A stretch of DNA of 64,000 nt from a virus. Its lineage: Duplodnaviria > Heunggongvirae > Uroviricota > Caudoviricetes. Made by a program: the position numbers. The DNA lies in IMG/VR virus record IMGVR_UViG_651053023_000001, positions 32,001 through 96,000 of that record; one strand, written 5' to 3'. This document shows, in pieces, positions 13,219 through 16,200 of the stretch. Within the stretch, counting starts at the first letter, position 1. Each line of letters begins with the position of its first letter.

Positions 13219-16200
13219 TTAACAGATTCTACGAGTTGTCATTTGTGACAGTATGCTCGCAATCGTAGTGATTACTACCACCAACTGCTAGCTTTCTTCT
13301 CTCTAGCTTTTCCTTCGCTTTGCAGTAAATCTTTACTTCCTGTAGAAATATTTCTATTTGCATCAGCCTCAGACTGAATTACATCTGTCTTAGCTGCTCT
13401 CTCCTTCAACTCCTGCTCTATAAAATCGTTTTCTCGCTGGACACGAGCCGCTTTTGCTTGCAGTTCGAGTTTCATGCTTTCGAGTTGCAGCTTGCGAAGC
13501 TCATCCTCATAAGCTTGATCTCGCTTCTTGTCATTTGCTAGCTCGGCTTCTCGTTTCGCTCTACGTTCATTTTCTGCAGCAACACGCTGTTTTTCGCGTG
13601 CAGCAGCGGCAGATGCTGCTTTTTCTCTTCTAATACGTTCAGCTTGTGCTTGTTGGCGAATAAGTTCTTTTCTGGCATCCTCAGCTTGCTGCTCTTTAGC
13701 TCGCCCTTCATTTTCCGCTTGAGCAATAGCAGCAATTTGACTTTGCAACGAGTTAGCCAAGGCAGTGCCTACACTAAACGTAGAAAAGATTAGAAATAAA
13801 ATAATTTTATTCATAAATTATTTCTTTTCTGGACAAGTAGCATTTGGCTGAATTCGAGTTTCATTATCTTTAGTTGAAATAAGCACAGCAAGCCCCGTTG
13901 TAAACTGGCATGCTTTACCAACTTGAGTTGAAGTGAACACCTTAGTTCCTTCTTTATAAGTCAGTGAAACACCTTCAACAATTGTTTTATCACTAACCAA
14001 AGAACCAGCCGCTGCACCAAGAGCCGCACCACCAGTACCGCCAGCTACAGCACCCAGTGTCGATGTGCCTTTAACATTATAACCGGCAACGCCCCCAGCA
14101 ACAGCTCCCAGTACCGCACCAAATGTCTGTGCCGCTTCTTTATTAGCTTTATTATCAACTTTCACTTTAGCTGGAAGCACAGAGATAATATTGACTGTCT
14201 TTGTTTCCTGCTTCGAATTCAATTGAGCGGTATCATAAACATCGGCAGCATAATCAGCACCGCTAGATTGACACCCAGAAAGAAGAATTGCAGATACAAC
14301 AAGAGCGCATAAAGTATACTTTTTAGACATAAGAATCATCCCAGAAAAACAAAAACCGGCGAGAAGTTACCACGAGAACGGAAAGTAAACAAGAATACTC
14401 CCATTGACTTATATCAATTAATCAACTTTTTATAAGCTATCCCTAACTTATTGTGTATAGCTGAAAAGTCAGAGACAAGTTCACCATCTGCATTATTTCT
14501 TAAGTTAATAGTTTATTGCTAACTTAATTTATGCATCGACTATTGATATCCATCTTAAAGTTACAATATCCCTCTGCATTATTTTTCATCACAAATAATA
14601 TATCTATTGCACGACACTAACCTGCTCTAATAAATTTGTATTTTTAAGTCGCGAATGCTATCTTTTCGCATCATATTGACCTTTTAATCGTTCAGGCTTA
14701 TAGTTTCGCCGTCGTAGCAAATTCTGCGACCGGGTTTAGCAGCCTGAATGATTGTGCGGACAGCCGCAGATATCCGATATTGCGGTATTTTTGTGTCCGT
14801 AAAACCGCGTTACGCCCAAATTATGGTGGGGCGTGATGGGGAGGCTTCGGCCTGCTGGTTTCACAATCGCCAGTCTGCTAACCCCGTCACGTCCTGCCAC
14901 CTGTTTAGCAGCGGGTAGCAGGTTGTTAAACCTGATTGTGAGGCCGTAACTATGGTTAATGCCAATCCTTGCGCACGCCAAGAATTCATCTGGCGTTTCT
15001 ATTCCTGCAAAAAACACCACTATCACTTCGTCATCGCAGCAACAGAAGACGAAGCACGCTCTCAATTGCCTGATGGCCCCTGCATTTTTACTGCCCGTTT
15101 TTCAACTAACTCGCGCAATTCACTTAGTTACTGGAACCTCCCCTTCTCTGCCGACGTTCAGGGGGGTTTATGAAAAAACCTCTCGTCACCCGTAATGAAA
15201 TAGCCGAAGCGATCGCCCTGCATACAACCTGTATGCCGACACGGGAGATCCCCGGCGCAATTGCCAACTATTTCATGATAACCAGGCGTTTTTATACCCG
15301 AACAGATAAGGCTGTGATCAACAAGCTACTGATAGCCGAGATCAGGGATTATTTGATTGAACAAGGACGTCTACGTTACGCAACAGTGGCAGCAGAAATA
15401 AGAAAGGAGGCACATAGAATGACCGGTAATAATTTGAATGTTGAAAAAACAGCACCTGTTACGTCAGCTACGCCAGCACCAGCCGTGAATATCATCCCCA
15501 ACACCGGAGACACAATCGACAGCCAAACATTGTTGAAGATGGTCAATGAGGCACGCAAGTTATGTGGAGAACCAGAGGTTAGAAACAATAAATTCATCGA
15601 AAAAATACTCGATGAACTTGAAGGTGAATTTTACACAAAAAGTGCAAAATCCCATGGCACAAGGGCTGGGCGCTCTTTTGAGGTCATCACCATGACCTAC
15701 AAACAAGCCCTGCGAGTTGCCGCGCGCGAGTCAAAAGCGGTCCGCCGTTCGCTGATCGACAAACTGGAAGAATTACAGCAGGCAAACTCCCCTACCCCAT
15801 CGATCCCCCAGACATTACCAGAAGCCCTACGCCTGGCTGCCGAGTTAGCAGAACAGAAAATGCAGTTGGAACAACAGCTGGTGGCCGCAGCCCCTAAAGT
15901 CGATTTTGCCGACCGGGTATCAGTGGCCAATGGAATCCTGATCGGGAACTTTGCAAAGGTCGTTGGACTTAAGCAAAACGCCCTTTTCTCATGGTTGCGC
16001 CAGAATGGCATTCTCATGGCTTTTGGAGCGCGCAAAAACGTACCGCGCCAACAGTACATCAACGCCGGGTATTTCACGGTGAAAGAAGTGGTGCTGGATG
16101 ATGAAAATGGCTACCAGATACGGCTGACGCCCCAATTAACGGGTAAAGGCCAGCAGTGGTTAACTCGCAAGCTACTTGATGCTGGTTTGTTAAAACCAGT

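What the first reader, a model, noticed from the sequence alone, without database searches (positions are those of the whole stretch)
13275..14339. Lipoprotein plus secreted coiled-coil protein pair upstream of immI (sim-like position)
Seen: a lipobox lipoprotein with a glycine-zipper core and an adjacent signal-peptide protein that is otherwise a charged coiled coil. Both are envelope-targeted and sit where I recall the P1 superimmunity genes. Inference: candidate superinfection-exclusion proteins acting at the envelope.
Basis: partly seen in the sequence, partly recalled or inferred. Interest (0 to 1): 0.45.

Follow-up and report, generated by a model that had tools for sequence, protein, structure and literature searches.

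The report
Phage copy of YfgH–YfgI envelope pair
A P7-type plasmid prophage carries its own diverged copy of the bacterial yfgH–yfgI outer-membrane maintenance operon exactly where phage P1 keeps its sim superinfection-exclusion genes; the genes are real and already annotated, but what they do for the phage has never been tested.

Summary
Window 13275-14339 (minus strand) contains two tightly coupled genes. One is a 173-aa lipoprotein with lipobox LSG|C and a glycine-zipper hairpin. The other is a 179-aa signal-peptide protein predicted to be one long charged helix. They are Upf50.5 and Upf50.0 of phage P7 (100% aa identity).

They lie in a 1.38-kb cassette (13247-14622). Its edges are the late promoter LPsit and the C1 operator of immI. 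In P1 this same slot holds simC-simB-simA.

The pair is not related to Sim. It is a diverged paralogue of the E. coli core operon yfgH-yfgI (67% and 47% aa identity, synonymous sites saturated). YfgH is a SlyB-like outer-membrane-stabilising lipoprotein. Purifying selection is strong (dN/dS about 0.05).

The two-gene module is nearly invariant across Proteobacteria (55 of 57 genomes). A prophage with P2-type tail genes and other phage-gene-rich contigs also carry it.

All three cassette types seen in this punavirus slot encode only Sec-exported proteins.

My best reading is an outer-membrane-remodelling lysogenic-conversion module. Superinfection exclusion is a plausible purpose but is untested. 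This is a new member of a known kind, of moderate-to-low interest.

The parts
13818..14339 (-). YfgH-like outer-membrane lipoprotein gene (P7 upf50.5). 173 aa as the ORF is called; the probable start is the second ATG at 14330. Lipobox LSG|C23, glycine-zipper helical hairpin at about residues 64-113, beta-rich C-terminal part with conserved C144/C169.
   Evidence: ORF. 100% aa identity to P7 Upf50.5. 67% identity to K-12 YfgH, E=6e-73. Family profile matches SlyB 7ojf at E=1.2e-9 over the full length. Foldseek top hit is SlyB, E=9.6e-7. Motifs.
13275..13814 (-). YfgI-like DUF5384 gene (P7 upf50.0). 179 aa: a Sec signal peptide (cleavage predicted after Ala20), then about 159 residues predicted as one long charged helix (about 24 nm if straight). 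The C-terminal half is conserved and the protein ends in SSWW.
   Evidence: ORF. Pfam DUF5384 E=3e-43. 47% identity to K-12 YfgI. AlphaFold2 single helix, pLDDT 87. Composition and heptad analysis. Conservation.
13247..14622 (.). The replaceable cassette: DNA with no counterpart in P1, which carries simC-simB-simA at the same place. It includes both genes and their AT-rich leader.
   Evidence: Pairwise alignments to P1: homology ends at window 13246 and resumes at 14623. Megablast to P1 covers only query 1429-1566. P1 annotation.
14340..14622 (-). 283-bp AT-rich (31-34% GC) leader/promoter region of the pair. Candidate sigma-70 promoters on the minus strand: -35 TACACA 14457-14452 with -10 TATAAA 14434-14429 (a candidate at a similar distance is seen in the 84% allele of pE189-1); and -35 14606-14601 with -10 14583-14578 next to the C1 operator. 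A 15-nt direct repeat CCmTCTGCATTATTT lies at 14484-14498 and 14570-14584. All are consensus-level predictions only.
   Evidence: Composition. Promoter scans. Repeat D8. Upstream alignment of alleles.
14621..14637 (+). C1 repressor operator Oc4/Op(c4). This is the right-hand border of the cassette and the start of immI. It lies 15 bp upstream of the -35 of the nearest minus-strand promoter candidate, so it probably does not occlude that candidate (inference).
   Evidence: Operator consensus search: 9 sites in the window against 0.22 expected. P7 and P1 annotations.
13201..13235 (-). Late promoter LPsit region with a perfect 12-bp inverted repeat (13201-13212 / 13224-13235). This is the left-hand border of the cassette. 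The pair lies directly upstream of the late tail-tube operon (tubA/pmgC and following genes) and in the same orientation, with no intrinsic terminator predicted between them.
   Evidence: Inverted repeat I4. P7 and P1 annotation of LPsit. Terminator scan found none on the minus strand here.

Best explanation
What it is. The cassette is a prophage-borne, long-diverged second copy of the bacterial yfgH-yfgI envelope operon. It is carried as an accessory (lysogenic-conversion) module in the variable slot next to immI.

Proposed mechanism, by homology:
1. The lipoprotein is exported by Sec, lipidated at Cys23 and sent to the outer membrane by Lol.
2. There, like SlyB and YfgH, it inserts its glycine-zipper helical hairpin. 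It assembles into rings that enclose patches of lipid, LPS and outer-membrane proteins and so stiffen the outer membrane.
3. The partner protein is exported to the periplasm. It is a rod-like helix of about 24 nm that always accompanies the lipoprotein and presumably acts with it.
4. In a lysogen the extra, divergent module changes outer-membrane robustness and organisation.

Proposed benefit. Tolerance to envelope stress (detergent/bile, chelators, LPS damage) and/or interference with envelope penetration by incoming phage.

Basis for each step. Shown: homology, module architecture, slot, purifying selection and mobility. Inferred: localisation, ring formation, expression in the lysogen and the phenotype.
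For: Identity:
- 67% and 47% aa identity to K-12 YfgH and YfgI, in the same order, with the same sizes (173/179 vs 172/179 aa).
- About 69% nt identity to chromosomal yfgHI, which is present in 5419 of 5426 complete E. coli genomes.

SlyB-like:
- Family profile against PDB gives SlyB at E=1.2e-9 over the full length.
- SlyB is the only significant Foldseek hit (E=9.6e-7, TM 0.50/0.59).

Host function:
- YfgH fractionates with the outer membrane.
- The yfgH deletion is sensitive to SDS+EDTA and more permeable.
- yfgH is induced by lpxC, lptD or bamA knockdown.
- It is modelled as SlyB-like rings (10.64898/2025.12.22.696046; PMC3219608).

Two-gene module:
- DUF5384 lies immediately downstream of a YfgH-like ORF on the same strand in 55 of 57 species genomes. 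These range from Enterobacterales to Campylobacter.
- The same arrangement is seen in every mobile copy examined except one.

Functional gene, not decay:
- dN/dS is 0.065 and 0.046 between the window allele and the 84% allele of pE189-1.
- dS is saturated against K-12, so this is not a recent capture from E. coli.

Accessory cargo:
- About 188 of 509 P1-like plasmids in PLSDB carry the pair (168 at 95% identity or more, 20 at 80-90%; a few of these records may not be P1-like). 265 carry sim DNA.
- The sim region is a published variable region of P1-like elements (PMC9603915).
- Other clades of the module sit next to the tail-fibre genes at the end of a prophage with P2-type tail genes in E. 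coli (on record in 245 blocks of the assembly collection). They also occur in a Salmonella prophage between an antirepressor and tail-fibre genes, and on phage-gene-rich contigs of about 100 kb.
Against: - No experiment exists on the phage copy.
- Expression in the lysogen is not shown. Promoters are consensus guesses at or below chance frequency (3 found against 3.5 expected).
- The AlphaFold2 monomer of the lipoprotein has low confidence (pLDDT 55.9).
- Ring formation by YfgH itself is only modelled, not demonstrated.
- YfgI's role is unknown. The one reported phenotype, nalidixic-acid sensitivity, has no clear link to the envelope (PMC3536626).
- Divergence from host YfgH is concentrated in the glycine-zipper hairpin (pN 0.33 against 0.10-0.13 elsewhere), so the phage protein may not do the same job.
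- Why a host that already has yfgHI gains from a second copy is unexplained.
Confidence: 0.55

Rival explanations
1. Dedicated superinfection exclusion, a functional analogue of P1 Sim. The outer-membrane ring-forming lipoprotein and the periplasmic rod block a step after adsorption of P1-like or other phages. Possible routes are sequestering or occluding receptors and LPS patches, or obstructing tail-tube or Sit transglycosylase passage through the envelope. This overlaps with the best explanation and differs only in what the selected benefit is.
For: - The cassette occupies the same slot as simCBA, with identical borders.
- sim-type and yfgHI-type cassettes together would account for up to about 450 of 509 P1-like plasmids, if no plasmid carries both.
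- Every protein of the three cassette types seen in the slot has a Sec signal peptide: SimA/B/C, YfgH'/YfgI', and two Ro157c2YLVW proteins.
- The 84% allele in pE189-1 has an added DUF559/REase-like gene, which suggests a hotspot for accessory or defence genes.
- Related modules lie beside tail-fibre genes at prophage ends, a classic place for conversion and exclusion genes.
- YfgH binds OmpA/C/F, LamB, BamA, LptD and TonB-dependent receptors, many of which are phage receptors.
- There is a weak resemblance to the TraT surface-exclusion lipoprotein (Pfam 23.1 bits, E=7e-5; the same family is flagged on many homologues).
- From my own knowledge: P1 sim causes exclusion after adsorption, and SimC is a processed exported protein (Kliem & Dreiseikelmann 1989; Maillou & Dreiseikelmann 1990). 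These papers were not readable here.
Against: - No homology to Sim.
- No PADLOC model hit.
- No paper in the held library links YfgH or SlyB to phage resistance.
- The TraT hit is below Pfam's cut-off (31 bits). TraT is absent from the profile-vs-PDB search and is not significant by fold (E=0.39 and 0.87).
- The two P1-like alleles compared evolve under strong purifying selection, with no sign of the diversifying pattern seen in some exclusion and receptor-interaction proteins.
- Chromosomal yfgHI is a core gene pair in phage-sensitive laboratory strains, so the fold alone does not exclude phage.
Confidence: 0.3
2. A lysis or virion function. Either the pair is spanin-like (outer-membrane lipoprotein plus periplasmic coiled-coil, as in Rz1/Rz), or the proteins are tail components, as some database records label them.
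For: - There is a superficial architectural likeness to two-component spanins.
- The pair lies directly upstream of the late tail-tube operon, in the same orientation, with no terminator predicted between them.
- The phi456 record calls them 'minor tail protein' and 'tail tip protein'.
- Very weak PHROG hits to an Rz-like spanin (E=0.038) and a tail-associated lysin (E=0.0049), both over the signal-peptide or glycine-rich segments.
Against: - P1 lacks the pair entirely, carrying sim instead, yet makes virions and lyses normally (the lysis competence is established knowledge).
- The orthologues are core chromosomal genes in 5419 of 5426 E. coli genomes and in many non-phage contexts.
- The helical protein has a cleavable AxA signal peptide rather than the N-terminal membrane anchor of an i-spanin.
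- The lipoprotein is far larger than o-spanins and is a SlyB homologue.
Confidence: 0.03
3. Selectively neutral passenger DNA: a hitch-hiking copy of a host operon that gives the phage or lysogen no benefit.
For: - The host already has yfgHI.
- The P7-type allele is 100% identical at the protein level in all 11 phage records and in 163 plasmids. That fits a recent clonal spread which need not reflect selection on the cassette.
Against: - dN/dS of about 0.05 across the roughly 13-16% protein divergence between P1-like alleles.
- Both reading frames are intact in every allele examined.
- The same module has been captured or retained independently by unrelated temperate elements.
Confidence: 0.07

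Closest known systems
Escherichia coli YfgH-YfgI (b2505-b2506), a chromosomal core operon
   Same: - Same gene order, sizes and tight coupling.
- 67% and 47% aa identity.
- Same lipobox, glycine zipper, two C-terminal cysteines and DUF5384 C-terminal motif.
   Different: - Located on a phage-plasmid in the sim slot, under an unrelated AT-rich leader.
- Synonymous sites are saturated.
- It forms a separate clade from E. coli core YfgH.
- Divergence is concentrated in the membrane hairpin.
SlyB (PDB 7OJF/7OJG), a PhoPQ-regulated outer-membrane lipoprotein that forms rings around lipid/OMP nanodomains
   Same: - Full-length profile match (E=1.2e-9) and the only significant fold match.
- Same layout: lipobox, short beta segment, glycine-zipper hairpin, beta domain.
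   Different: - Only about 25% identity.
- SlyB is monocistronic, with no DUF5384 partner.
- yfgH and slyB mutants have different suppressors (clsA versus Mla) according to 10.64898/2025.12.22.696046.
Phage P1 SimC-SimB-SimA (superimmunity / superinfection exclusion)
   Same: - Identical genomic slot and orientation, between LPsit and the C1 operator of immI.
- All products carry Sec signal peptides.
   Different: - No sequence similarity.
- Three genes rather than two.
- None of the three Sim translations contains a lipobox cysteine, and there is no glycine zipper.
- Sim has an experimentally shown exclusion phenotype (my own knowledge); this pair has none.
TraT (F-plasmid surface-exclusion / serum-resistance lipoprotein, decameric ring; PDB 9FS5, 9E2V)
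   Same: - An outer-membrane lipoprotein that forms an oligomeric ring and is carried by a mobile element.
- Weak Pfam match over residues 59-145.
   Different: - Below Pfam's gathering score (23.1 against 31 bits).
- Not found by the family profile in PDB.
- Fold match not significant (E=0.39 and 0.87, TM 0.25 or less).
Phage exclusion lipoproteins Cor (phi80/HK022/N15) and Llp (T5), which block FhuA
   Same: Small prophage- or phage-encoded outer-membrane lipoproteins that act at the envelope. This is a conceptual analogue for the exclusion reading.
   Different: The only match is a signal-peptide-level PHROG hit to Cor (E=0.022, residues 10-54). There is no homology in the mature part. Cor and Llp are single genes.

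Membership tests
YfgH family (SlyB-like glycine-zipper outer-membrane lipoproteins) | Significant full-length sequence similarity to YfgH and SlyB | tested here: met
   BLASTP to K-12 YfgH: 67% identity, E=6e-73. Family profile to SlyB 7ojf: E=1.2e-9, residues 9-162 against 6-153.
YfgH family (SlyB-like glycine-zipper outer-membrane lipoproteins) | Lipobox with lipidated Cys and an outer-membrane sorting signal | tested here: met
   LSG|C23 is the only lipobox match. Cys23 is invariant. The +2 residue is Gln, not Asp. Actual lipidation and localisation cannot be tested here.
YfgH family (SlyB-like glycine-zipper outer-membrane lipoproteins) | Two-helix glycine-zipper (GxxxG-type) membrane hairpin followed by a beta-rich domain | tested here: met
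   12 overlapping small-xxx-small motifs at residues 70-116. AlphaFold2 secondary structure H64-88, H94-113, then strands 118-163 (low pLDDT). Foldseek top hit is SlyB, TM 0.50/0.59. The Pfam glycine-zipper hits are below cut-off for this sequence but are on record for many homologues.
YfgH family (SlyB-like glycine-zipper outer-membrane lipoproteins) | Oligomeric ring formation and outer-membrane stabilisation phenotype | not testable with these tools
   Only monomer prediction is available. Even for YfgH the rings are AlphaFold3 models.
DUF5384 / YfgI family | Pfam PF17358 match above the gathering score | tested here: met
   147.8 bits against a cut-off of 25, E=3e-43, profile positions 4-145 of 145.
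DUF5384 / YfgI family | Encoded immediately downstream of a YfgH-like lipoprotein gene on the same strand | tested here: met
   In the window the genes are 3 nt apart. The same arrangement is found in 55 of 57 species genomes and in L004, L006, L007, L008, L010 and L094.
P1 Sim superinfection-exclusion system | Homology to SimC, SimB or SimA | tested here: not met
   BLASTP to SimC gives E=5.0 and E=0.044 over short chance segments. The megablast match to P1 starts only at the C1 operator.
P1 Sim superinfection-exclusion system | Location between LPsit/pmgC and Oc4 of immI, with exported products | tested here: met
   Borders at 13246 and 14623. Signal peptides on all products.
P1 Sim superinfection-exclusion system | Blocks infection by P1-type phage after adsorption | not testable with these tools
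   Needs plating and DNA-entry experiments.
TraT surface-exclusion lipoproteins | Pfam PF05818 match above the gathering score, or a significant fold match to TraT | tested here: not met
   23.1 bits against a cut-off of 31. TraT is absent from the profile-vs-PDB search at E up to 10. Foldseek E=0.39 and 0.87.
Two-component spanins (Rz/Rz1 type) | An i-spanin with an N-terminal membrane anchor plus a small o-spanin lipoprotein, required for lysis | tested here: not met
   The helical protein has a cleavable ALA|N signal peptide. The lipoprotein is a 150-aa SlyB homologue. P1 lacks the pair. PHROG Rz-like hit is E=0.038 only.
Known anti-phage defence systems (PADLOC-DB v2) | Match to any PADLOC protein model | tested here: not met
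   0 families for either protein at E up to 1.

The most novel reading that the evidence does not exclude
YfgH-YfgI-type modules may be an unrecognised, recurrent class of prophage cargo whose selected role is envelope-level protection of the lysogen against incoming phages, and possibly against other outer-membrane assaults. The SlyB-like lipoprotein would form rings that sequester or shield receptors and LPS patches. The 24-nm charged-helix partner would act as a periplasmic strut or barrier. P1-like phages would then swap this module with sim and with a third exported-protein cassette at a dedicated 'envelope exclusion' slot beside immI.
Probability: 0.25. Interest if true: 0.65.

Novelty: new member of a known kind. 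Interest (0 to 1): 0.33.

Why it matters
The genes have been in GenBank as P7 upf50.0 and upf50.5, 'of unknown function', and are mislabelled in RefSeq and PHROGs. Three points could be useful.

1. The host homologue YfgH has only just been characterised as a SlyB-like outer-membrane stabiliser. That gives the phage genes a concrete biochemical hypothesis for the first time.
2. The same two-gene module turns up as cargo in several unrelated temperate elements.
3. The sim slot of P1-like phage-plasmids always encodes exported proteins. This makes it a clean natural experiment: swap the cassettes, then measure phage plating and outer-membrane robustness.

P1-like phage-plasmids are common in clinical and livestock E. 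coli and Salmonella, and about a third of those in PLSDB carry this cassette. A cassette that hardens the outer membrane or excludes phages would matter for phage therapy and for the fitness of these carriers of resistance genes.

If the cassette shows no phenotype, this is simply an ordinary accessory paralogue.

Tried and rejected
- Sim homology: rejected.
- TraT membership: a lead from a sub-threshold Pfam hit, rejected after the profile-vs-PDB and Foldseek searches.
- 'DNA methyltransferase' (the PHROG 1277 label, propagated to the RefSeq records of P7, RCS47, SJ46 and TL-2011b) and 'minor tail / tail tip protein' (phi456): mislabels with no domain support.
- Spanin or virion role: rejected because P1 lacks the pair and the orthologues are core chromosomal genes.
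- Recent capture from E. coli: rejected, because dS is saturated and the phage alleles form a separate clade.
- Diversifying selection between phage alleles: not seen (dN/dS about 0.05).
- Wide distribution in phages: most IMG/VR and PHROG members at 66-69% identity lie within a few kb of the ends of prophage predictions or records, TL-2011b included. I read these as host yfgHI flanks, not cargo.
- NCBIfam, PADLOC and single-sequence PDB searches gave nothing useful.
- DUF5384 has no solved relative. I did not run a fold search on a single-helix model because it would be uninformative.
- A sigma-E type promoter in the leader: none found.
- Sigma-70 predictions are no better than chance.
- Megablast of the Salmonella and Enterobacter contigs of about 100 kb (L007, L010) against GenBank phages found nothing. 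Their phage-like nature rests on PHROG and tblastn hits only.
- The Lobocka et al. 2004 P1 genome paper could not be read. The library holds no paper that mentions DUF5384, and none that combines SlyB, phage and superinfection exclusion.
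Full report
**What the window is.** The region around the finding is a P1/P7-type plasmid prophage (Punavirus).
- Window 13195-14760 is 99.9% identical to phage phi456 and 99.2% identical to phage P7 (AF503408). Classical P1 matches only from query base 1429 onward.
- Gene order on the minus strand is sit, tubC/pmgB, tubB/tub, tubA/pmgC, late promoter LPsit, and then the two genes of the finding.
- On the plus strand come the C1 operator (14621-14637), c4-a1b1 (14698-14750) and C4 RNA (14819-14904) (Rfam), then icd, ant1/2, kilA and repL.

**Checking the observation.** Two ORFs fill the stated coordinates exactly: 13818-14339 (173 aa) and 13275-13814 (179 aa), both on the minus strand and separated by TAA-ttt-ATG.
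- *Lipoprotein.* It has a single lipobox, LSG|C23, with Cys23 invariant in 58 homologues. Gln at +2 points to the outer membrane by the Lol rule (established knowledge). There are 12 overlapping small-xxx-small-xxx-small motifs at residues 70-116. Two further cysteines are invariant. The second ATG (14330) is the more likely start.
- *Second protein.* It has a signal peptide ending ALA|NS and is predicted as one uninterrupted helix (residues 4-178, pLDDT 87). The mature 159 residues are 41% charged and would span about 24 nm if straight.
- *'Coiled coil' is only partly right.* Residues 21-95 have too few hydrophobic residues (4-11%) and look more like a charged single alpha-helix. Residues 91-135 have a heptad-like pattern.

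So the description is correct, with that one qualification. The signals are far beyond chance: DUF5384 E=3e-43 and dN/dS of about 0.05 between alleles.

**What it is.** The genes are P7 upf50.5 and upf50.0 (100% aa identity). The P7 record annotates them as an outer-membrane lipoprotein and a membrane protein of unknown function, similar to E. coli K-12 proteins.
- The K-12 counterparts are yfgH and yfgI, adjacent genes next to guaA. Identity is 67% (E=6e-73) and 47% (E=9e-46), with the same order and sizes.
- At the DNA level the pair is about 69% identical to chromosomal yfgHI, which is found in 5419 of 5426 complete E. coli genomes. The phage-type copy (covering at least 80% of the query) is in 181 genomes, on plasmids in the examples listed.
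- Synonymous sites between phage and K-12 copies are saturated (pS about 0.8). In a neighbour-joining tree the P1-like alleles form their own clade, apart from E. coli core YfgH. This is an old paralogue, not a recent pick-up from E. coli.

**What the homologues do.**
- YfgH is an outer-membrane lipoprotein. Its deletion sensitises cells to SDS+EDTA and raises permeability.
- It is induced when LpxC, LptD or BamA are depleted, and its overexpression rescues such depletions.
- It pulls down BamA, LptD, OmpF/C/A, LamB and TonB-dependent receptors.
- It is modelled as SlyB-like rings (bioRxiv 10.64898/2025.12.22.696046). Earlier genetic-interaction data agree (PMC3219608).
- I confirmed the SlyB relationship directly. 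A profile of 58 family members matches SlyB (7OJF) at E=1.2e-9 over the full length. Despite a low-confidence monomer model (pLDDT 55.9), SlyB is the only significant Foldseek hit (E=9.6e-7, TM 0.50/0.59).
- YfgI is almost unstudied. A deletion is sensitive to nalidixic acid (PMC3536626). In Salmonella Typhi the orthologous operon srgIL is SdiA-regulated (PMC11619404).
- DUF5384 has no solved relative.

**The two genes are one module.** I fetched 57 species-level genomes through a DUF5384 motif. In 55 of them a YfgH-like ORF lies immediately upstream on the same strand. These span Enterobacterales, Vibrionaceae, Pasteurellaceae, Aeromonadales, Pseudomonas, Shewanella, Nitrosomonas, Acetobacteraceae and Campylobacter. 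The patchy taxonomic spread suggests mobility.

**The slot.**
- *Borders.* Alignment with P1 places the cassette borders at window 13246/13247, just past the LPsit inverted repeat, and at 14622/14623, the first bases of the C1 operator. P1 holds simC-simB-simA in the same interval.
- *Frequencies.* In PLSDB, 509 plasmids carry the neighbouring pmgC/tubA gene and 265 have sim DNA. About 188 have the YfgH-like gene at 80% aa identity or more (163 at 99% or more, 5 at 95-99%, 20 at 80-90%). The sim region is one of eight published variable regions of P1-like elements (PMC9603915).
- *The 84% allele.* It sits in the same slot of pE189-1 together with an extra DUF559/REase-like gene.
- *A third cassette.* Phage Ro157c2YLVW has a different pair of genes in the slot.
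- *Shared theme.* Every product of all three cassette types starts with a Sec signal peptide: SimA, SimB and SimC, both Ro157c2YLVW proteins, and the two proteins here. The slot seems reserved for proteins that act in the envelope.

**The module on other mobile elements.**
- A different clade (P0036, on record in 245 blocks of the assembly collection) lies between the chromosomal aspS/isochorismatase-family genes and the tail-fibre genes of an integrated prophage with P2-type tail genes in E. coli.
- A close relative in Salmonella lies between an ORF6N antirepressor and tail-fibre genes.
- More distant clades sit on Salmonella and Enterobacter contigs of about 100 kb that are rich in phage-family genes.
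- A Vibrio plasmid carries the pair. A 7.5-kb ColE1-type plasmid carries the lipoprotein alone, next to a phosphoethanolamine transferase.
- By contrast, most 'viral' database hits at 66-69% identity lie within a few kb of the ends of prophage predictions or records, TL-2011b included. I read these as host yfgHI flanks.

**Regulation.**
- The 283-bp leader is 31-34% GC. It is unrelated to the K-12 yfgH leader but partly conserved in the 84% allele.
- Candidate sigma-70 promoters on the minus strand are at 14457-14429 and 14606-14578. They are consensus-level only, with 3 sites found against 3.5 expected by chance.
- The C1 operator lies upstream of the -35 of the nearer candidate, so repression by C1 is not obvious (inference).
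- No terminator is predicted between the pair and LPsit.
- No sigma-E type promoter was found.
- Whether the pair is expressed in lysogeny is unknown.

**Interpretation.** These points are well supported:
- The pair is a functional YfgH-YfgI module.
- It is kept by selection.
- It is carried as swappable cargo in the sim slot.

By homology, the lipoprotein should insert its glycine-zipper hairpin in the outer membrane and oligomerise like SlyB, with the helical partner acting alongside it in the periplasm. The benefit to the phage or lysogen is not established.

I favour general outer-membrane remodelling or fortification as lysogenic conversion (0.55). Dedicated superinfection exclusion is the main rival and overlaps with it (0.30).
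- *For exclusion:* the slot, the exported-protein theme, the position beside tail-fibre genes in other prophages, and YfgH's binding to many phage receptors.
- *Against exclusion:* no homology to Sim, TraT, Cor or any PADLOC model, strong purifying selection, and no supporting literature.

Lysis and virion roles are excluded in practice, because P1 lacks the pair. Neutral hitch-hiking is unlikely given a dN/dS of about 0.05.

**Novelty and score.** The genes are already in public records, and their similarity to K-12 proteins was noted in the P7 annotation. Three things are new here:
- the link to the newly characterised YfgH/SlyB mechanism;
- the recurrence of the module in unrelated temperate elements;
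- the exported-protein theme of the slot.

I rate it a new member of a known kind, interest about 0.33. It would rise to about 0.65 if the module proves to be a general prophage-encoded envelope exclusion system, which I put at about 0.25 probability.

Noticed in passing
window 7333-11028 (minus strand, sit): The Sit protein (putative injection transglycosylase / tail ruler) is 1231 aa here against 1130 aa in P7. The extra length is an N-terminal duplication of about 99 aa: residues 35-133 recur as 134-232, about 75% identical to the P7 segment. If Sit acts as a tape measure, this might alter tail length. Tandem Repeats Finder did not flag it.
   Followed up: partly
RefSeq records NC_050152 (P7), NC_042128 (RCS47), NC_031129 (SJ46), NC_019445 (TL-2011b); PHROG 1277: The YfgH-like lipoprotein is annotated as 'DNA methyltransferase' in RefSeq and PHROGs, and as 'minor tail protein' in phi456. 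Its partner is annotated as 'tail tip protein' in phi456. No domain evidence supports any of these labels.
   Followed up: yes
L005 (plasmid pNT1W25-7k, NZ_CP075476.1) 755-3306: A 7.5-kb mobilisable ColE1-type E. coli plasmid carries a phosphoethanolamine transferase gene (mcr-like by its name) next to a lone YfgH-like lipoprotein gene (75% identity), with no DUF5384 partner. Both products would act on the outer membrane or LPS.
   Followed up: no
L094-L096 (E. coli chromosomal contigs), about 7001-8071: A distinct yfgHI-like clade (P0036) sits at the junction between the aspS/isochorismatase-family host genes and the tail-fibre genes of a prophage with P2-type tail genes. It is on record in 245 blocks of the assembly collection. 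Some E. coli therefore have up to three yfgHI-type loci.
   Followed up: partly
L091 (phage vB_EcoM-Ro157c2YLVW) 2727-3902: A third cassette type occupies the sim slot: two signal-peptide proteins of 215 and 158 aa. The N-terminal 36 or so residues of the first are almost identical to P1 SimA and are then fused to unrelated sequence. It has a sub-threshold PTPlike_phytase Pfam hit (26.6 against 27 bits).
   Followed up: partly
L004 (pE189-1) 4890-6149: The 84%-identical allele of the cassette is followed by an extra 419-aa gene with a DUF559 / REase_MTES_1575 endonuclease-like domain, inserted between the pair and pmgC.
   Followed up: no
window 18362-18536 (+): Rfam sok antitoxin RNA (109.7 bits). 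This implies a hok/sok-type post-segregational killing locus a few kb beyond repL, which I did not expect in a P1-type backbone.
   Followed up: no
window 51087-51203 and 54653-54769 (+): Two identical-scoring ALIL pseudoknots (the frameshift element of IS3-family transposases) lie 3.6 kb apart. This suggests two copies of the same IS, possibly bracketing a composite insertion.
   Followed up: no
window 14484-14498 and 14570-14584: A 15-nt direct repeat (CCATCTGCATTATTT / CCCTCTGCATTATTT, 86 bp apart) lies in the AT-rich leader of the pair. It could be a regulator binding site or chance.
   Followed up: no
window 13412-13426: A sequence resembling the core of the C1 operator (CCTGCTCTATAAAAT against CCTGCTCTAATAAAT at 14621-14635) lies inside the DUF5384 coding region. 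It was not among the 9 operator-consensus matches at up to 3 mismatches, so it is probably chance.
   Followed up: partly
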